Program-made: the position numbers and the translations under genes
Shown: one piece after another, positions 38,956 to 62,194 of the stretch
Numbering within the stretch: position 1 is the stretch's first letter
Layout: every line of letters begins with the position of its first letter
The notes under the pieces: model-generated
Database searches by the model: none
Told to the model about the DNA's origin: nothing
Seen by the model: the letters and a program-made list of their open reading frames with translations, nothing else
Origin: a virus
Taxonomy: Duplodnaviria > Caudoviricetes
Direction: 5' to 3' (one strand)
Length of the DNA stretch: 64,000 bases
IMG/VR virus record: IMGVR_UViG_3300029288_000072
Span: 134,443 to 198,442 of that record

Positions 38956-41900
38956 TTATGCGAAAAGATCTTCTATGTCCTCTATTTCACAATTTGGTAT
39001 TTCCCATCTTAAAACTTGAAAAAATTGATGTAATGGTTTCATGAAAATCTTCTCCCACATTGTATCATAATCTATACAATCTTCTAGACCAAATTCTGAT
39101 GGTATTTTTTCTTTAAATGAAATTGCATTATTTCTAAAATGATCCTGTTCATGAATATATACTACTCGTACTTTGTCACCTTCATATATTAATTCATATT
39201 TGTCTTCTAACTTCATTTCTTTAATTAATTTATTATAAATTATGGCACCTTTTATATGCTGTGGACATCCTTTGATCGGATATCCAGTCAAAGAATCTGT
39301 ATATTTTTCCAAATTATTCGCAGTACTTACTTTAGATATTGATACTGGTGTAGATTTCATAAATTCTGTATAATATTTTAAAATTTCATTTTTAACTTTT
39401 TCTTTATCTAATGTTTTCATTAATATTGTAACTACAGATTTTAATGCGTTTCTTACAATTTCTGGTGTGCTTGATCTGACAATTTCAACCCCTTTAACCT
39501 CTAATTCGTGTTCATCACCCTCTGGAATATCCTTCCCTTCCATGTTTAATACATATGCAACATATCTCTTTTTTGCTAAGTGTAATCCTCTTCTAGATAT
39601 CATTTCTCTCTTAAATGATATTCTGTTCTCTGGACAATTCATTCTTACTTTCGCAAGATGTTCCATTCTTGTATCAATTATTTTTGTAATTAATGGTGAT
39701 ATCTTTTCATCTAAAAACTTTACAGTCTTTTGAATATCAGTATCATCATAATTAATACTTTTTAAAATTCTTCCTGCTGCTAAATAGCAAGAATTGTGTA
39801 ATAATATATCGTTTGCAAAATATGTATGTGGAGTATCTACCATTCCTATATCATAAACGTCCTGATAATCAGAATTAATGTATTCTACTGACTCTACTTC
39901 GTCAACTTCATAATCTAATTGTAATTCATTGTTTTGCAGTTCACAATCAACATATATATTATGTTGTTTATACTTCAAACTAATTATTTTATCACCACGG
40001 ATTATTTCTTTTGGTTTCTTTTCTACTAATTTTCCATTACTATCTATAACCATACATGAATGGTCTTCTGTAACACTTACATGTTTGCCAGATTTTGTTT
40101 TTATTTTAAATATAGGTTTTTGTACAAAATGTCTCTCAATATACTGGACCTTACCAAAATTTATTTTCTTGTTTTCTTCATCATAAAACGGTAATTCCGT
40201 ATTATTACAAAATATAAATGCTCTTCCATCATGATGTACTTTTATTAAGTTATCATTTTGTATTGCTTCTTGTTCAAAAAACTCTCTAAAAGTCTTTTTT
40301 TTACCATTTTTCATAACAACAATATCAGAAAAAACGTTGGAGTCGGTGTCATTATACGTAATAATATTACTGATATTTTTAGCTTTTAATTTTTTTCCAA
40401 TGTTAGTATCTTCCCATTTTTCAAAATATGAGTTTATTGCATGAGAAGTATTTTTAATTATTTCTTGACCAGTTAAAGTAATAGCAGCAGCACTATCTTG
40501 GTCATATAATCTAGACCATTCAGTACCAAAAAACCCAAAAACAGAGTTTATCAAAATTTTAAAATTATACTGAAGTCCATTTTGAATTTTTTCTTCATCA
40601 TGATTGCCAGATTTTTTAGCATCTTTCATTAAATTTTTATGATAATTTCTTTTTTGAAACCATTCTTCTACGAATTTTGGTACAACACCTTGTTTATCAT
40701 GTCTATAAATTGCACCATTTGATGCGATTGATAATTTGTGTTCTTTTATTTTATTTACCCATTCTATACATGTAGAACCATCTTCTGTTTCAATATCTCT
40801 GTGTTTATTTTTTTCAAAATCTTCTAACATATCAAGAATAATTATTGCTTCTTGTTCAGTAACTTTTGATATTTTTGTTTCTGGAGATATATTATGTTGT
40901 ATCATAATAGACGGATACAGAGAGGTTGCATCATATGACATCAACCACTCATGTACACCAGTTTGGGGATCGTGAACATATGCACCTGTAAATTTATCAT
41001 TTTTTTCTGACCCCGCAACATCCGGTAAAACTATTTTATCCAATAACAGTTTAGATATGAATGCCCCATCTAATATTTTTGTTGTAACCGCAAATTGTTC
41101 AAATGGAACTCTGCATCCATAACAAATAGTTGTCATAATGCTCATAAACTGTAATTTTTCATCTAATTTAATTAGAAGATTAACGTCTTGTACGTTATAT
41201 TCTACGTATTTTTGCCAATCTTTATTATATAGTTCTTTTAATGATCCTTCATAATGGATTTTAGACTCATTTATTTCTAATCTAGCTATATAATCAAGTC
41301 TATATGATTCTTGTTGATTTGGGTGATATTTCTTATAAAGTTCTAAGTAGTCTATACAGTTTATACCTGCAATTTCAAATCGTTCTACTTCTTTATTAGA
41401 AAACTTTGTTCTTGATATATGTTTTTTAATAATACCTATAGGAGAAAGTTTACTTGTTTGTCTTTCTCCTAATATTTTATTACAACGGTTTATTATATAT
41501 GGTATATCATATGAACTACTGTTCCACCCCGAAACTATATCCGGATGGATCTGATTAATAAATTTTACAAACGTTGCCAACAATTCTTTTTCTGTTTTAA
41601 AAGATTTTACATAATGGTTCATTTCTCCATTTTTATCTTTTAAAAAATCTGTATTAAAATCGTTTGCAGCAAAAATATAATATTTTTGTCGTTTAGTTGA
41701 CCATACAGTAATAATTACAATAGGATGTTCTGCTTCTTCTGCCTTTGGAAATCCTGTTTCAGAATGCACTTCGATATCTATAAAATGTACGTCGAATTTT
41801 GGTGGGATTAATTCTTGTCCTGCCCAATGATCTAAAATAAATCTATTATTTTGTGATATATCAGATTCGAACAATTTTCTTCCTGCATCTTTATACATTT

Positions 41901-42105
41901 TTTTAGTATCAATAAATTTTCCTATTGTGTCAAATTCAACCTTTCTTAGTTTATCTCCATAAATTGAAGTATATTCTCCTTCTGGATGTTGCATATAAAA
42001 ATAAAGGGGAGCCGCCTCTTTATAATGGCGTTTCTCCCCTTCATTGTCATATTCCCACCAATGAATAGTACTATTTGATTTTTGGAAATATACTGAACTA
42101 TACAT
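38956..42105 (-). CDS. 43: Family B DNA polymerase (T4 gp43-like) with mini-intein
   Basis: DIEV exo I, GWNS..YD, YNVQDV, DATSLYPS, KILINSVFG, YNDTD|S, KKRY, KGVE. Confidence 0.97.
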   Translation of the reverse strand: MYSSVYFQKSNSTIHWWEYDNEGEKRHYKEAAPLYFYMQHPEGEYTSIYGDKLRKVEFDTIGKFIDTKKMYKDAGRKLFESDISQNNRFILDHWAGQELIPPKFDVHFIDIEVHSETGFPKAEEAEHPIVIITVWSTKRQKYYIFAANDFNTDFLKDKNGEMNHYVKSFKTEKELLATFVKFINQIHPDIVSGWNSSSYDIPYIINRCNKILGERQTSKLSPIGIIKKHISRTKFSNKEVERFEIAGINCIDYLELYKKYHPNQQESYRLDYIARLEINESKIHYEGSLKELYNKDWQKYVEYNVQDVNLLIKLDEKLQFMSIMTTICYGCRVPFEQFAVTTKILDGAFISKLLLDKIVLPDVAGSEKNDKFTGAYVHDPQTGVHEWLMSYDATSLYPSIMIQHNISPETKISKVTEQEAIIILDMLEDFEKNKHRDIETEDGSTCIEWVNKIKEHKLSIASNGAIYRHDKQGVVPKFVEEWFQKRNYHKNLMKDAKKSGNHDEEKIQNGLQYNFKILINSVFGFFGTEWSRLYDQDSAAAITLTGQEIIKNTSHAINSYFEKWEDTNIGKKLKAKNISNIITYNDTDSNVFSDIVVMKNGKKKTFREFFEQEAIQNDNLIKVHHDGRAFIFCNNTELPFYDEENKKINFGKVQYIERHFVQKPIFKIKTKSGKHVSVTEDHSCMVIDSNGKLVEKKPKEIIRGDKIISLKYKQHNIYVDCELQNNELQLDYEVDEVESVEYINSDYQDVYDIGMVDTPHTYFANDILLHNSCYLAAGRILKSINYDDTDIQKTVKFLDEKISPLITKIIDTRMEHLAKVRMNCPENRISFKREMISRRGLHLAKKRYVAYVLNMEGKDIPEGDEHELEVKGVEIVRSSTPEIVRNALKSVVTILMKTLDKEKVKNEILKYYTEFMKSTPVSISKVSTANNLEKYTDSLTGYPIKGCPQHIKGAIIYNKLIKEMKLEDKYELIYEGDKVRVVYIHEQDHFRNNAISFKEKIPSEFGLEDCIDYDTMWEKIFMKPLHQFFQVLRWEIPNCEIEDIEDLFA
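39793..40341 (-). mobile_element. Mini-intein (183 aa, no homing endonuclease) at the DTD|S site of Pol motif C
   Basis: Starts Ser after YNDTD; block B VTEDHS; block F VYDI; ends HN followed by Ser. Confidence 0.92.
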
Positions 42106-52667: not shown

Positions 52668-53150
52668 ATGAGAAAACGTTTAAAATTACAGATTTTATCT
52701 ATATTTTCAGAGAGTGTAAACATTGAAAAAGATGATTTATTTTTGTTACTTATAGATAGAAAACCTAAATTAAAAATTTTAACATCAAAAGGTGAATATA
52801 ATGAAGAATTTGGATATGTTTTGCCTTTTGATTATGGAGAATTTTTAGAATATAAGAAAAATGATGTTAATTGGAAGTTTATAATAACACCAAATTCATT
52901 TTCTTATGATGATAAATTGAAACCAGTTGGAATTATTAATAATACAATAATATTAGCTAATAAAGGTAATATTAGTGATGATGAAAAGACTTTAATTAGA
53001 AAAGTTTTTAATAAAGATGATGTTGATTTTAGTTTAAAAGAGAATTGGGAAGATTCAATATTTAAAACATATAAGCTAACAAAGGTTAAAGACAAATATT
53101 ATGGTGGAATAGGTGTAGGAAAAGTAGCTAGAAAATCTTTCTATAATTGA
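52668..53150 (+). CDS. Hypothetical late protein (weak pyrophosphatase-like PFDYG motif)
   Basis: Late promoter; LPFDYGE but no DxDxxD catalytic motif. Confidence 0.55.
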   Translation: MRKRLKLQILSIFSESVNIEKDDLFLLLIDRKPKLKILTSKGEYNEEFGYVLPFDYGEFLEYKKNDVNWKFIITPNSFSYDDKLKPVGIINNTIILANKGNISDDEKTLIRKVFNKDDVDFSLKENWEDSIFKTYKLTKVKDKYYGGIGVGKVARKSFYN

Positions 53151-53242
53151 GTTACAATATAATTTCAGGCAGATATTAAGAATGTTTAAGTAGTTTAATA
53201 TGTTTTGTTTATTATTTTATTTAAATTAATTTTAACTTATTA

Positions 53243-53379
53243 TAGATCTACGGATACTACGTTTCACTTCGTATCCTCCGATCTACTCAACCTGCTAACA
53301 CTTCGTGTTATCAGGTTTCGTAAGATTTATTTTTGATTTAAACTAGTTAAATTAGTTTTATTTAGTTTTATTTAGTTTT
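53243..53379. other. Hairpins with GNA-triloop motifs plus 3x TTAGTTTT direct repeats (candidate replication origin)
   Basis: TAGATC/GATCTA, GGATAC/GTATCC, AACCTG/CAGGTT, TAACAC/GTGTTA stems; 10-bp-period repeats at 53352-53379. Confidence 0.45.
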
Positions 53380-53380
53380 C

Positions 53381-53664
53381 GTCTGTGAAAATTTCTAGAT
53401 TTTTAATACACAGACATATATTCCTATTTTTCTTGTACTATAAGTACAAAAATATACAGGACTTATGTGACTAGCGTTGCAACACATCAGGCAATTAGAG
53501 TCCGCTGACCGTCTTATGTTTTCGGACTAAATATTATTTCTATGTTTTCCTGGCTTGTTAACACCAGCACCTATACAATCGGTAATATATAAATTGATTA
53601 TATAGATGGTCTACTGTGCTTTTGTTTATCGTGGTAGCCGTAGTCTTAATCCATTACTAACAAG
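53381..53664 (+). ncRNA. Candidate structured non-coding RNA (multi-stem, pseudoknot)
   Basis: At least 7 stems found by eye; G.U wobbles favour + strand; loop CTTGTTA (53554-60) complements TAACAAG (53658-64). Confidence 0.45.
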
Positions 53665-53691
53665 TTCATATGTAAATAAACGGTTACTTTC

Positions 53692-55554
53692 TTATACTAT
53701 AATTCGATATACTTGCTCCTTACTATTACTATTTGGTGGTAAAATATAAAGTGATATTCTTTCATTTACACCAAATGCGGTTGTTGATCGCCATTGATTT
53801 ATATTTAGTTCTCTTAACATTATATGAAATCTTTTTGCGTCGTCAATATAATTTTTATAAGATTCTTCGGATCTAAGATTTTTCTTTCCATCTAATGAAT
53901 TATGATAACAATATGCATCAATAGCAAAATTATGTAATCCTTTAGATTTTGCATTCATACAAATATCTGCCCCATAAAAATGAAACCCTGTTATTCTTTC
54001 ATCTCTAAATCTTAGACCAGTTTGCTTATTTATTATAAGACATAACTCATCTAATGTCAAGACTTCGTTTTTATATTTATTTGGAGGATTTAATGGTGTT
54101 AAACTGGCATCTGTTAAATAATAATATGCTTTATGGTCTAACGTTACGCCAGCAGGACCAATTACACCCCATTTAGATTGTTCTACTTCTAATTGTTTTA
54201 TATTTTTTGTAATTGAATTTAACCAATTGTCCGGAACAACAACATCTTGATGTAAAAATATAACATGTTTACCAGAACTAATATCCATAGCATTATTATA
54301 TGCCTTTCCAACATTTGTATACATATTATTAAAATTAGGAATTGCGATTAATTCTATACTATGTTTTCCTTGTTGAGTTTTTAATGAATTACAAAAGTTT
54401 AAATATTCATTAAAATCATGAACTAATGTTATTATTGAATAATCATAATTTACAATTTTATTTCTTGTTATTGCATTTGCAGAAACTTTTCCTCTCAAAT
54501 ATGAACTATCCTTATGCATTTGTTTTAACCGTTCTTCTGGCATACCATTTCTAAATCTTGATGCATTATCTTTATGAATTATTTCTGCTTTTCTATTACA
54601 TATATTATATTTTTTCAAAACGCTTGTTATTTTCATCATAATATCAACATCTTGAAATATATCTTCATATTGTTCATCAAACCCATTTATTTTTTTATAA
54701 TCATTTACATGTATTAATACACCAGCAGCAGTATTACCATCAACTATTTTTATTCCATTTTCTTTTTCTATTAATTGTGGTTTTCTTAGTCCAAGATTAA
54801 TATGACCAGGATTTGTGTATTTACCTGATGCATCATAAATATGTTGACCATCATGTTGAATTCTACCATCTTCATAGTACATTCTACAACCAACAGAACC
54901 AACTTTTCTAAAGATTCCAATTTCCATCATTTGAGTAACATAATCATTTAATGCTTTTGTATCATTATTTTGAATTACTACAAAATCTGTTGTAACATGA
55001 TTAAAAATTGCAGAATTATAATTTTTTCCGAAATGATAGTTTTTAAGTTGGACAAATTTATAATTAAAGTTTTTCATATTACATAATTCTTGTAATGACT
55101 TATAATAATCAAATACTAATGGATCTGTTGTTCCAGTATCTACTATCATTATTGTTGTGTTTGGATATTTAACATGTTCTAATATAGAATCACAACATGG
55201 CTTAATTAAGTCCAAACTATCTTTAGTTAGTATAGAAATAGTTACTGTAGGATTTCTACCTAAACTATGATAATATTTTAAATGATTTAATTCATCATTA
55301 ATAATTGTATTTAAATTTGTTGTTTGTGGTATAGATGATAATATTTTATCAATACTATTTGCTTGTGGAGGAGGTTTTATAGTTGAATGTTCATTAGGTA
55401 TTTTTGGTTGTACAGTTTGTCCAATCATTGATAATCCAGGAATCATAGATAATGAATCTGGTCCATGAATAACAGCATTTGGCTTAATTACTCTTCTACT
55501 ACCATTTATCATGATAGGTATTTCATAAATAGTGTTGTTTTTAAATACTGCCAT
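53692..55554 (-). CDS. Tandem two-domain GT2 glycosyltransferase
   Basis: VDTG, QNND, HDG, GFDE.Y...QDVD; second domain AYN..M, FLHQD, TLDE, FHFYGAD. Confidence 0.88.
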   Translation of the reverse strand: MAVFKNNTIYEIPIMINGSRRVIKPNAVIHGPDSLSMIPGLSMIGQTVQPKIPNEHSTIKPPPQANSIDKILSSIPQTTNLNTIINDELNHLKYYHSLGRNPTVTISILTKDSLDLIKPCCDSILEHVKYPNTTIMIVDTGTTDPLVFDYYKSLQELCNMKNFNYKFVQLKNYHFGKNYNSAIFNHVTTDFVVIQNNDTKALNDYVTQMMEIGIFRKVGSVGCRMYYEDGRIQHDGQHIYDASGKYTNPGHINLGLRKPQLIEKENGIKIVDGNTAAGVLIHVNDYKKINGFDEQYEDIFQDVDIMMKITSVLKKYNICNRKAEIIHKDNASRFRNGMPEERLKQMHKDSSYLRGKVSANAITRNKIVNYDYSIITLVHDFNEYLNFCNSLKTQQGKHSIELIAIPNFNNMYTNVGKAYNNAMDISSGKHVIFLHQDVVVPDNWLNSITKNIKQLEVEQSKWGVIGPAGVTLDHKAYYYLTDASLTPLNPPNKYKNEVLTLDELCLIINKQTGLRFRDERITGFHFYGADICMNAKSKGLHNFAIDAYCYHNSLDGKKNLRSEESYKNYIDDAKRFHIMLRELNINQWRSTTAFGVNERISLYILPPNSNSKEQVYRIIV

Positions 55555-59842: not shown

Positions 59843-60375
59843 GAATAGTTGGTGTCGATCCAGGTATTAATGGTGGATTATGTTTTATGACCGATGGGGT
59901 TGTTAATGCGGTTGTAAAAACACCTACATATGCATATACAGTAGGTTCGGGAAAGAAATTAAAGAAAAAGAAAATGCTGGATGCAGAAATTGTCGGGGAA
60001 TTGATAAAAAAGTTTAATCCTCATGCAGTCTATATTGAAAAGGTTGGAGGAATGCCAGGACAGGGAATTACATCTACATTTAATTTCGGGTTTGTAACTG
60101 GAATGGTCCACGGAATTTGTGGTGCATTAAAAATAAAAGTAACTACTGTTAGACCTCAAGAATGGAAAAAAGTTATACTAGAAAATGAAGATCATGATAA
60201 AGATGCAGCTATAGGATTTTGTCAACAAAACTTTCCTGATGTCAATTTATTACCAACAAAAAGATCCACAGAACCACATGATGGAATGGCAGAATCTATT
60301 TGTATAGCAATTTTTGGTCTGAAAAATGAAATAAATAAAATAAATACTACCGGAGATTCTACTAATGAAGGCTAG
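59839..60375 (+). CDS. RuvC-like Holliday junction resolvase
   Basis: GVDPG, YIEKV, F.FG, P.EWKK, DGMAE. Confidence 0.88.
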   Translation: MRIVGVDPGINGGLCFMTDGVVNAVVKTPTYAYTVGSGKKLKKKKMLDAEIVGELIKKFNPHAVYIEKVGGMPGQGITSTFNFGFVTGMVHGICGALKIKVTTVRPQEWKKVILENEDHDKDAAIGFCQQNFPDVNLLPTKRSTEPHDGMAESICIAIFGLKNEINKINTTGDSTNEG

Positions 60376-62194
60376 ATATAACGGAATACTATATAAAGTT
60401 ATAGATAAAACAGATAAATTCGTTATTCTGGAAGGAAAAGGTGGATACACATTTAAAGCATACTTAGAAAATGTAATATTTGAAAATAAACCAGAAGAAG
60501 TTCTTCCAAAAGAAAGACCACCTGTAAATGATATTGTAGAACAATCTGAAGATAAAAGCCTAATAGAAATGCCGTATGTAGATACACCAGATCATAGAGG
60601 ATTTGATTTTGCATTTGAAATATTAAATAAAAATTATCCCGATATAAATGAACGTAAACAAGTCTTTATTACTATGTTAAAAGATATTTTTGATGGAAAA
60701 AAAGTTCAAAGCCCTAGAAACGAAGATAATATTATAGAATTAAAAACAGATGAAGATAAACAAGATTTTTCAGATTATCTGTTGTCTGATGATACATTTA
60801 AATTATCAATACAAAAGTTTTTTAATCTATCCATAGAAGATATAATGGATACAATATCAAGACCTACGTTAATAAATGAAATAGATTTAAAAAAGATCGC
60901 AACTCATCCTGATGTAATTGATGCTATCAAAACAGTTTATAGTATAAAAGGGGTTGGTGATAGAAAAGGTGAATATAGTCCAGAAAGAGCAGTAGGTATG
61001 TTAAAACGTGCCGCAGAATTATTAAAGAAAGAAGGTAAATTAACAGAAGAAGAATATATAAAAAGAATAGTCGAATGGCTAAAAAAATCTGGTGATAGAG
61101 GAAAAGGAAGAAAAGTTATAGGTCTAAATGACTTACCTGGAGAAGTTATGTCAGATATTTCAAAACAACCAAAAAAAGAACCAGAAACAAAATTAAATGA
61201 TAATACAAAAGAGTTAGTACAGAAAATTATTGATTATATAGAAAATGGTAAGGTAACATATGATGAAATTAATACTGTTTTAAAAGATGAAAATGCACTA
61301 GAATATTTAGACCAAATAATAACAGTTTTAGAAAAACTTAATGTTGAAATAGTTGACGAAAAAACTCCTGAAACACAAACTCCTGCAATGTCTGGTGAAT
61401 TAAACGAATGTGGTGTTACATCTGCTGCTGCACCAGGAACAATGGATGCAACAACAAATCAAGCAATAGATGGAACTAGTGGAATTGCTATTAGACCATC
61501 ACGATTCGGCAAAAAAGATGAATATAAGTCTGATTTACAAAGAAGACTTGCAGAAGAAGTTGGATATGCCTCTTTAGAAGAAGTTTTTAAAACAGAAGTT
61601 CCTACAACAGGATTAACAAGTATAGAAGTATTAAAAAAGAAACAAAATGATGAAAAACAAAAAGAAGAATTAAAAAAATATTATTCGGAATTAGAAAATA
61701 ATAAACAAACCCCCGAAGAACTAGAAGAAGTAGTTAAAACAAAACTTAGAAAAAGACAAGACGCAACAAGTATATCATCATTAAAAGGTCCATATGAACA
61801 TGCTACAAAAGTTTTAAAAGATAAAGAACAACAAAATACTCCTAAAGAAAAAGAATTGGATGAAGTCGTTTCTACAAATTTAAGACCAACCCAAAATCTA
61901 AGAGATATAACAACATTGAAAGGTCCACATGCGGATGCGGTTAAAGCACAAGGAACTGCAACTACACGAAGAATGCCAGCAATAACCCCTTCTGTATCTA
62001 AAACTGATGATACAAAAAAATATACAAAGCCTAAATCTCACTCTGTCGGAATTATGAGGGAAAAAATTAAAAAATTATTTGATAATATTAATAATTCCGA
62101 TAATTTTGAATTTGATATAGAAGAACAAGAAGAAACAACATTAGAAGAAGAATTTGATTTAAATAAAATAATAGACGAATCACTAAACTCTTGA
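60365..62194 (+). CDS. Multi-module late protein with a sigma70 region 1.1-like domain and tandem repeats
   Basis: GKVTYDEINTVL...LDQIITVLEKLNVEIVDE; two ~43 aa repeats; many L/I-x-E motifs. Confidence 0.7.
   Translation: MKARYNGILYKVIDKTDKFVILEGKGGYTFKAYLENVIFENKPEEVLPKERPPVNDIVEQSEDKSLIEMPYVDTPDHRGFDFAFEILNKNYPDINERKQVFITMLKDIFDGKKVQSPRNEDNIIELKTDEDKQDFSDYLLSDDTFKLSIQKFFNLSIEDIMDTISRPTLINEIDLKKIATHPDVIDAIKTVYSIKGVGDRKGEYSPERAVGMLKRAAELLKKEGKLTEEEYIKRIVEWLKKSGDRGKGRKVIGLNDLPGEVMSDISKQPKKEPETKLNDNTKELVQKIIDYIENGKVTYDEINTVLKDENALEYLDQIITVLEKLNVEIVDEKTPETQTPAMSGELNECGVTSAAAPGTMDATTNQAIDGTSGIAIRPSRFGKKDEYKSDLQRRLAEEVGYASLEEVFKTEVPTTGLTSIEVLKKKQNDEKQKEELKKYYSELENNKQTPEELEEVVKTKLRKRQDATSISSLKGPYEHATKVLKDKEQQNTPKEKELDEVVSTNLRPTQNLRDITTLKGPHADAVKAQGTATTRRMPAITPSVSKTDDTKKYTKPKSHSVGIMREKIKKLFDNINNSDNFEFDIEEQEETTLEEEFDLNKIIDESLNS

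What the first reader, a model, noticed from the sequence alone, without database searches (positions are those of the whole stretch)
53381..53664. Unrecognised ~280 nt structured RNA with a long-range pseudoknot
Stems found by eye: GTCTGTG/CACAGAC (53381-87/53409-15); TTGTACT/AGTACAA within a longer stem (53422-61); closing stem GACTA/TAGTC (53469-73/53641-45) enclosing AGTCCG/CGGACT (53499-504/53523-28), CTGG/CCAG (53550-53/53564-67), CTATA.AATC/GATT.TATAG (53571-605) and CTACTGTG/CGTGGTAG (53611-37). The CTGG/CCAG loop CTTGTTA can pair with TAACAAG (53658-64) outside the closing stem. Extensions rely on G.U pairs on the + strand. The region is more GC-rich than its flanks and matches no RNA family I recognise. 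It could be a new ncRNA or ribozyme, or a primer RNA for the adjacent origin-like element.
Basis: partly seen in the sequence, partly recalled or inferred. Interest (0 to 1): 0.75.

Follow-up and report, generated by a model that had tools for sequence, protein, structure and literature searches.

The report
New pseudoknotted RNA in T4-like phages
A roughly 300-base RNA gene with co-varying hairpins and three co-varying pseudoknots lies just after a glycosyltransferase gene in a small group of uncultured T4-like phages; it matches no catalogued RNA family and its job is still unknown.

Summary
The same about 300-nt element lies downstream of a two-domain GT2 glycosyltransferase in 11 distinct phage contigs with the gene order uvsY, uvsW, GT, RNA, nucleotidase-like gene, RNR. 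The flanking GT proteins are only 37-56% identical.

Supported by covariation:
On the model-fitted alignment, 88.8% of cells pair versus about 42% when partners are slid, and 39 of 51 pairs show double changes.
- Two further pseudoknots found here: the hairpin loop at 53583-89 with 53530-36, and 53505-09 with 53486-90.

The stem 53381-87/53409-15 is at best window-specific.

The RNA most likely lies on the minus strand, co-directional with GT, not the plus strand. The minimum free energy is lower on that strand in 9 of 9 members. G.U versus A.C is 39:11. Sigma-70-like sites lie just upstream in five members. One member has an intrinsic terminator after the last hairpin.

No Rfam 15 family matches any member, no tRNA or tmRNA is called, and there is no conserved ORF. 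I read it as a new, independently transcribed, compactly folded non-coding RNA. Its function (binding scaffold, ribozyme or primer) is not determined.

The parts
53371..53688 (-). Whole conserved RNA element. The covariance-model match is 53371-53664. Sequence conservation with the closest relatives runs to 53688, directly after the GT stop codon at 53692-94.
   Evidence: nhmmer iteration; covariance model R1, 275.6 bits; single copy in the 198-kb record.
53658..53664 (-). PK1, 5' strand: the leader just upstream of the first hairpin. It pairs with the loop at 53554-53560.
   Evidence: Own-versus-other complementarity, 1 of 20000 permutations. Seven of seven pairs show double changes on an alignment not fitted to this pairing.
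53632..53653 (-). Hairpin H1. It is weak in the window (3 bp) and 4-6 bp in relatives. Some members carry an extra variable hairpin after it.
   Evidence: four of five pairs show double changes, 80% of cells paired.
53605..53631 (-). Conserved A-rich joining strand.
   Evidence: Alignments A1, A2 and A5. No covarying partner was found.
53571..53605 (-). Its loop at 53583-53589 is the 5' strand of PK2.
   Evidence: Six of six inner pairs show double changes, 91.7% paired. RNAalifold recovers it on its own, with an outer U.G pair that is C-G in three members.
53550..53567 (-). Its loop at 53554-53560 is the 3' strand of PK1.
   Evidence: Four of four pairs show double changes, 100% paired; RNAalifold.
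53530..53549 (-). A-rich joining strand. Its last seven bases (53530-53536) are the 3' strand of PK2.
   Evidence: PK2: 0 of 20000 permutations. 86.9% paired and six of seven pairs show double changes on an unfitted alignment.
53498..53529 (-). It has an 18-nt loop. A near-invariant nine-base motif lies at 53511-53519. The PK3 5' strand lies at 53505-53509.
   Evidence: for the stem. The loop motif holds four columns that are invariant in all 10 sequences of A9.
53486..53490 (-). PK3, 3' strand. It pairs with 53505-53509 to make a classical H-type pseudoknot with H_A.
   Evidence: The segment-pair scan gave 0 of 3000 permutations. Pairings are listed. Five of five pairs show double changes.
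53474..53485 (-). Small hairpin H_F.
   Evidence: Four of four pairs show double changes, 86% paired.
53414..53468 (-). Long bulged stem H_C enclosing hairpin H_B (53429-53453). A conserved nine-base motif at 53464-53472 leads into it.
   Evidence: H_B: eight of eight pairs show double changes, 93% paired. The outer five pairs are conserved with no double change.
53376..53391 (-). Terminal hairpin H_G. In L054 the equivalent hairpin is followed by a T-run and scored as an intrinsic terminator.
   Evidence: 79% paired, little variation; terminator at L054 5247-5261 on the RNA strand.
53819..53846 (-). Sigma-70-like site (11 of 12 consensus positions) inside the 3' end of the GT gene. It is a possible promoter for the RNA in the window.
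   Evidence: The same site is visible in L006, but it lies in conserved coding sequence, so this is weak evidence.

Best explanation
This is a gene for a previously uncatalogued non-coding RNA of about 300 nt, on the window's minus strand. It is carried by a small clade of uncultured, AT-rich T4-like phages.

Inferred expression: host-type RNA polymerase transcribes it, either from its own sigma-70-like promoter or together with the upstream glycosyltransferase gene. It ends at or shortly after its last hairpin.

Shown by covariation: eight hairpins are locked together by three pseudoknots.
- PK1: the 5' leader with the loop of hairpin H_E.
- PK2: the loop of hairpin H_D with the strand just before hairpin H_A.
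- PK3: the 3' part of the H_A loop with the strand just after H_A.

Inferred function (not shown): two A-rich joining strands and three near-invariant single-stranded motifs would make a rigid, specific surface. The most likely mode of action is as a stable trans-acting RNA that binds a defined partner, a phage or host protein or a small ligand, rather than by simple antisense pairing.
For: Homologues and synteny:
- The element lies in 11 distinct contigs that share the order uvsY, uvsW, GT, RNA, nucleotidase-like gene, RNR.
- The DNA is conserved although the neighbouring GT proteins are only 37-56% identical.

Hairpin covariation:
- 88.8% of cells pair versus 33-45% with slid partners.
- 39 of 51 pairs show double changes, and 0 of 500 shuffles reach the observed values.
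- RNAalifold recovers four of the helices independently.

Pseudoknots:
- Own-versus-other complementarity gave 1/20000 for PK1 and 0/20000 for PK2, and 0/3000 for PK3. These were the only three strongly significant pairs among all segment pairs scanned.
- On an alignment built without knowledge of them, 70.8% pair versus 34-46% slid, and 18 of 19 pairs show double changes.

Strand:
- Minimum free energy is lower on this strand in 9 of 9 members.
- G.U versus A.C in the hairpins is 39:11, p about 0.003.
- One outer pair is U.G in seven members and C-G in three.
- Same-strand sigma-70-like sites lie directly upstream: 11/12 in L054, L011 and L015, and 10/12 in L050 and L009.
- An intrinsic terminator follows the last hairpin in L054.

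Not coding and not a known RNA:
- There is no conserved ORF, and the window has no stop-free stretch of 45 codons.
- No Rfam 15 family matches the window or seven relatives.
- No tRNA or tmRNA is called.

Not a 5' leader: the next gene is convergent in most members.
Against: - There is no transcript evidence. No RNA run holds this DNA, and the host is unknown.
- The window and its closest relatives have no clear promoter between the GT stop codon and the RNA. They also have no T-run after the last hairpin, so the RNA there may be a 3' UTR or a processed piece of the GT mRNA.
- The pseudoknot helices themselves do not discriminate the strand.
- The hairpin statistics come from an alignment fitted to the model.
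- The RNA is missing, or diverged beyond detection, in related phages that carry the same GT. One of these records is 90% complete. It is therefore accessory.
- The proposed binding function rests only on architecture.
Confidence: 0.5

Rival explanations
1. It is a ribozyme. The pseudoknotted core and the near-invariant unpaired motifs form an active site. That site would cleave or ligate RNA, for instance to process the GT transcript or the RNA itself.
For: - Three pseudoknots and invariant single-stranded nucleotides in a 300-nt RNA are typical of catalytic or ligand-binding cores.
- In the window-type members the RNA abuts the GT stop codon with no promoter between them. This would fit release by cleavage.
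Against: - No self-cleaving, group I, group II or RNase P model in Rfam 15 gives a hit at an E-value cutoff of 5-10 in any member.
- No conserved candidate cleavage site was identified.
- Several members have their own promoter, so processing is not needed there.
Confidence: 0.12
2. It is a cis-acting 3' untranslated element of the glycosyltransferase mRNA. A compact fold there would block 3'-to-5' or endonucleolytic decay, or set the mRNA's 3' end.
For: - It lies downstream of, and co-directional with, GT in every member.
- It directly abuts the GT stop codon in the window, L006 and L007.
- No separate promoter is found in that gap in the window.
Against: - Strong sigma-70-like sites lie between GT and the RNA in L054, L011, L015 and L050, and L054 also has a hairpin there that looks like a GT terminator.
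- In L009 another gene separates GT from the RNA.
- Three pseudoknots and invariant loops are far more than a decay barrier needs.
- Relatives with the same GT lack the RNA.
Confidence: 0.15
3. It is a structured pre-primer RNA for a replication origin. Transcription runs through the folded RNA into the AT-rich, repeat-bearing spacer at 53151-53370. There it forms a persistent RNA-DNA hybrid, as ColE1 RNA II and the T4 oriF transcript do (from established knowledge of those systems).
For: - Transcription on the minus strand points into a very AT-rich spacer with direct repeats in the window, L009 and L015.
- Most members have no T-run after the last hairpin.
- The locus lies two genes from uvsW and uvsY, the T4 genes linked to oriF R-loops (the link is from general knowledge).
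Against: - L054 has a scored intrinsic terminator and L015 a T-run right after the last hairpin.
- The spacer sequence and its repeats are not conserved between members.
- The GC-rich hairpins beyond it look like terminators of the convergent gene.
- No skew switch independent of gene orientation is seen.
- Related phages lack the element.
Confidence: 0.1
4. The conserved pairings act at the DNA level, as single-stranded DNA hairpins of an origin or a packaging signal, and no functional RNA is made.
For: Watson-Crick covariation is strand-symmetric, and the pseudoknot helices do not discriminate the strands.
Against: - Pseudoknots between loops and distant single strands, the G.U excess on one strand, and a U.G to C-G exchange are features of RNA folds.
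- A promoter and a terminator bracket the element in L054.
Confidence: 0.03

Closest known systems
Large 'ornate' phage-associated RNAs of unknown function (ROOL, GOLLD; Rfam families; cryo-EM study, bioRxiv 10.1101/2024.12.08.627333)
   Same: These are phage-borne, stand-alone, unusually complex folds with many covarying helices and long-range loop contacts, and no assigned biochemical function.
   Different: No Rfam model for them matches here at any threshold used. This RNA is about 300 nt rather than 500-800 nt. It is found in T4-like phages next to a GT gene. Whether it multimerises is unknown.
phi29-family packaging RNA (pRNA)
   Same: It is a phage-encoded structured RNA in which loop-loop Watson-Crick pairings covary between relatives (from general knowledge).
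   Different: pRNA is 120-174 nt and belongs to small phi29-like phages, where it is part of the packaging motor. T4-type terminase motors are not known to use an RNA. There is no Rfam match. Here the covarying long-range pairings can all form within one molecule.
ColE1 RNA II and the T4 oriF/oriG R-loop primers
   Same: A folded transcript is read toward an AT-rich region, and the locus is close to uvsW and uvsY.
   Different: A terminator follows the RNA in at least one member. The downstream spacer is not conserved. T4 origin transcripts are not known to need a conserved tertiary fold.
Classical H-type pseudoknots, such as the T4 gene 32 mRNA leader and frameshift pseudoknots
   Same: PK3 together with hairpin H_A has the H-type layout: stem, loop strand pairing downstream, and an A-rich third loop.
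   Different: Here it is one module of a much larger RNA. It is not placed at a ribosome-binding site or a slippery sequence, and its first loop is long (12-13 nt) and nearly invariant.
Cobalamin riboswitch (considered because a class II, B12-type RNR lies nearby)
   Same: It is of similar size and uses a loop-loop pseudoknot.
   Different: No Rfam cobalamin model matches. The RNA is not upstream of any gene on its strand in most members, because the next gene is convergent.

Membership tests
Any Rfam 15 family (4227 models) | Covariance-model score at or above the family's gathering threshold | tested here: not met
   There were no matches in the 64-kb window. At an E-value cutoff of 10 in 53000-53900, the only hit lay outside the element, at 53821-89 inside the GT gene, below threshold. 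Nothing fell on the element in seven other members at a cutoff of 5.
tRNA / tmRNA | Cloverleaf or tRNA-like domain with a tag reading frame, as detected by ARAGORN | tested here: not met
   ARAGORN found no genes in the window.
Group I intron | It interrupts a gene with flanking exons, and has the P3-P7 pseudoknot with adjacent P7/P3'/P8/P7' order | tested here: not met
   The element follows the GT stop codon, and GT homologues end at the same place with or without it. There is no Intron_gpI hit. The order of helices and pseudoknots differs.
Bacterial RNase P RNA | A terminal P1 stem joining the 5' and 3' ends, a P4 long-range helix from conserved regions CR-I and CR-V, and an Rfam RNaseP model match | tested here: not met
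   There is no Rfam match. No covarying pairing links the 5' and 3' ends in the segment-pair scan.
Riboswitch (cis-regulatory 5' leader) | Located in the 5' untranslated region of the regulated gene on the same strand | tested here: not met
   The next gene downstream on the RNA strand is convergent in the window, L005, L006, L010 and L011.
Structured non-coding RNA (general criterion) | Base pairs maintained by compensatory changes beyond controls | tested here: met
Structured non-coding RNA (general criterion) | A stable transcript of defined ends on the predicted strand | not testable with these tools
   No RNA run holds this DNA. Only promoter-like and terminator-like sites could be scored.
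Self-cleaving ribozyme | Site-specific self-scission in vitro | not testable with these tools
   Only the absence of matches to known ribozyme families could be shown.

The most novel reading that the evidence does not exclude
This is a new class of large functional RNA: a ribozyme, a ligand-sensing RNA or a self-assembling RNA particle. T4-like phages would use it during early infection, with the three pseudoknots and invariant loops forming an active or binding site unlike any described family.
Probability: 0.2. Interest if true: 0.9.

Novelty: categorically new. Interest (0 to 1): 0.72.

Why it matters
Large, intricately folded RNAs with strong covariation and no known function are rare. 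Past examples have turned out to be ribozymes, riboswitches or RNA-only assemblies.

This one is compact enough for structure determination, at about 300 nt with three pseudoknots. It has clear, testable pairings and sits in a defined genomic slot of T4-like phages, the best understood phage group, where no such RNA has been described. That would make it a tractable new entry point into what phage-encoded structured RNAs do.

The practical limits are that the phages are uncultured (the window's DNA is from a landfill metagenome) and the host is unknown.

Tried and rejected
DNA pattern scans:
- A pattern built from the five closest members found nothing in viral or metagenome contigs.
- A looser two-gap pattern found only known members plus 2 random hits in viral contigs and 15 random hits in prokaryote genomes. 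The model rejected all of these.

Protein-guided searches:
- Single-protein locus searches with the 160-aa protein and with UvsW found nothing.
- A GT search of cultured phages gave only distant partial hits.

Covariance models:
- A full-length second model could not be calibrated.
- Searches with filters off failed.
- An 85-nt core model (R2) added no new members and found no copy elsewhere in five related virus records.

Sequencing runs: no RNA holder is listed. Only landfill metagenome DNA runs hold the stretch.

Pairings tested and not supported:
- A possible fourth pseudoknot between 53407-13 and the last hairpin loop is weak.
- By eye, the 3' arm at 53414-18 could pair alternatively with look-alike motifs in the H_A loop and the A-rich joiner. 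This is not conserved in L054.

Other checks:
- A strand test on the pseudoknot helices alone was inconclusive.
- Coding potential was rejected.
- The convergent neighbour was examined as a possible partner protein. It belongs to an NT5C-like nucleotidase family, which gives no reason to link it to the RNA.
- The weak GA-cis match at 53821-89 lies inside the GT gene, below threshold, and was dismissed.

Full report
**Context**

The window is the last 64 kb of a 198-kb, 27% GC virus record. It encodes T4-type replication and recombination genes: UvsW, UvsY, a family B polymerase with an intein, a DnaB-like helicase and a class II-like RNR. UvsW is only about 34% identical to that of any cultured T4-like phage. 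The DNA is held by landfill metagenome runs.

The finding lies in the only large non-coding gap of the region, 53151-53691. On one side is a plus-strand 160-aa gene (52668-53150). On the other is a minus-strand two-domain GT2 glycosyltransferase (53692-55554).

**The observation in the window alone**

Folding energy is only modestly better than dinucleotide shuffles: z -2.3 for the plus strand and -2.9 for the minus strand. Rfam 15 gives nothing at gathering thresholds in the whole window. At an E-value cutoff of 10 it gives nothing on the element itself. ARAGORN finds no tRNA or tmRNA. On this evidence alone the case would be open.

**Relatives**

- GT homologues of 37-56% identity were retrieved. 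Their contigs were fetched directly and through GT-profile scans.
- The close contigs share the order uvsY, uvsW, GT, a 500-650-nt gap, a convergent small gene, then RNR.
- Gap DNA corresponding to window 53371-53688 is conserved.
- A covariance model built from four close members with a hand-drawn structure (R1) found the element in L005, L006, L007 (cut by the contig end), L008, L009, L011, L015 and L054, and marginally in L050.
- An 85-nt core model (R2) confirmed all of these and added the GC-richer L016.
- That makes 11 distinct contigs.
- The element is single-copy in its own genome.
- It was not detected near GT in L010, L012-L014, L044, L045 or L048, among other GT-bearing loci searched. 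It was also not detected anywhere in five related virus records, one of them 90% complete. It is therefore an accessory feature of a subclade, or it diverges quickly.
- Pattern scans of viral, metagenome and prokaryote collections added no further members.

**Hairpins**

On the model-derived alignment A5:
- 88.8% of cells form standard pairs, against 33-45% when partners are slid by 1-3 columns.
- 39 of 51 pairs show changes on both sides.
- 0 of 500 shuffles reach the observed values.

That alignment is fitted to the structure. Three independent checks answer this:
- The same compensatory exchanges are visible in plain MAFFT alignments.
- RNAalifold recovers the four strongest helices on its own, with 28 of 30 predicted pairs showing double changes.
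- Averaged single-sequence pair probabilities pick out the same helices.

In window coordinates the supported helices are:
- H1, 53632-53
- H_D, 53571-605
- H_E, 53550-67
- H_A, 53498-529
- H_F, 53474-85
- H_C, enclosing H_B, 53414-68
- a terminal hairpin H_G, 53376-91

**Pseudoknots**

I cut every unpaired segment out of each member. For each pair of segment types I compared the best contiguous complementarity within a sequence with that between different sequences.

Only three of about a hundred segment pairs stood out:
- PK1: the 5' leader with the H_E loop. Result: 1 of 20000 permutations.
- PK2: the H_D loop with the strand just upstream of H_A, 53583-89 with 53530-36. Result: 0 of 20000.
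- PK3: the 3' end of the H_A loop with the strand just upstream of H_F, 53505-09 with 53486-90. Result: 0 of 3000.

In nearly every member each pairing is 5-9 bp long, and the sequences differ from member to member. On alignment A5, whose model knew nothing of these pairings, 70.8% of cells pair against 34-46% when slid. Eighteen of 19 pairs show double changes, and 0 of 500 shuffles reach this.

- The closing stem (53469-73 with 53641-45). It forms 4-5 bp only in the window, L008 and L009.
- The stem at 53611-37.

The stem 53381-87/53409-15 is long in the window but weak elsewhere.

**Strand**

Evidence for the minus strand, the strand of the GT gene:
- Minimum free energy is lower on that strand in 9 of 9 full-length members.
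- In the consensus hairpins there are 39 G.U pairs against 11 A.C juxtapositions, where composition predicts about 1.4:1 (p about 0.003).
- One outer pair of H_D is U.G in seven members and C-G in three.
- Sigma-70-like sites matching 11 of 12 consensus positions lie on this strand just upstream of the element in L054, L011 and L015. Sites matching 10 of 12 lie upstream in L050 and L009.
- In L054 the last hairpin is followed by a T-run and is scored as an intrinsic terminator. L015 has a similar T-run.

Caveats:
- The pseudoknot helices alone do not discriminate the strands.
- In the window the only good promoter-like site on this strand (53819-46) lies inside the end of the GT gene. Co-transcription with GT remains possible there.

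**What it is not**

- No reading frame is conserved. The window has no stop-free stretch of 45 codons on either strand.
- It is not upstream of a gene on its own strand in most members, because the next gene is convergent. That neighbour belongs to an NT5C-like nucleotidase family. This rules out an ordinary riboswitch leader.
- It interrupts no gene, since GT homologues end at the same point with or without it. Its order of helices and pseudoknots also differs from group I introns and RNase P.
- No Rfam family matches in eight members.
- A survey of structured RNAs in viruses (PMC10690425) mentions none of glycosyltransferase, UvsW, T4-like, ribonucleotide reductase, jumbo or helicase in its main text. 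A second literature search found nothing relevant.

**How it probably works**

Shown: a conserved fold with eight helices and three pseudoknots, two conserved A-rich joining strands, and near-invariant unpaired motifs at 53511-19, 53464-72 and around 53568-72.

Inferred: early transcription by host-type polymerase, and termination at the last hairpin.

Inferred with low confidence: the rigid fold presents a specific surface and acts in trans by binding a protein or small ligand.

Alternatives are listed with their tests: a ribozyme, a 3' UTR stabiliser of the GT mRNA, a pre-primer for an origin in the adjacent AT-rich spacer, and a DNA-level element. I could not obtain transcript data, so expression itself remains an inference.

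**Verdict**

This is a real and apparently new family of phage non-coding RNA. The strand, two stems and the overall topology need correcting. Function is open.

Noticed in passing
L008:3877-5641: In one relative, an IS607-type pair (serine resolvase plus a TnpB/Cas12f-like gene) lies on the opposite strand about 200 nt beyond the RNA's 3' end. It occupies the slot held by the small nucleotidase-like gene in other contigs.
   Followed up: no
L005:5850-6007 and L008:3228-3386: These two relatives carry an extra conserved segment of about 110-160 nt between the GT stop codon and the RNA. It contains its own hairpins and may be a 5' extension or a second element.
   Followed up: no
window 53151-53370: The other half of the gap has three 10-bp direct repeats and two GC-rich hairpins capped by three-base loops. 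Similar short-looped GC-rich hairpins recur at the same relative place in L006, L050 and L011. On the plus strand the second hairpin is followed by a T-rich run, so they may simply terminate the convergent gene.
   Followed up: partly
window 52668-53150: The 160-aa protein has no Pfam or PHROG hit. It is homologous to 190-203-aa proteins at the same position in relatives, and to the C-terminal half of a 381-aa protein in L009 that matches 5'-3' deoxyribonucleotidase families.
   Followed up: partly
L010:5860-6200: A relative with the same synteny has a gap of similar size with several hairpins and a promoter-like site, but neither RNA model matches it. It may be a strongly diverged version or a different RNA.
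   Followed up: partly
window 38956-42105: The family B DNA polymerase gene carries an intein splicing domain at residues 596-771.
   Followed up: no
window 60365-62194: A 609-aa protein has a segment matching sigma-70 region 1.1 at residues 293-338.
   Followed up: no
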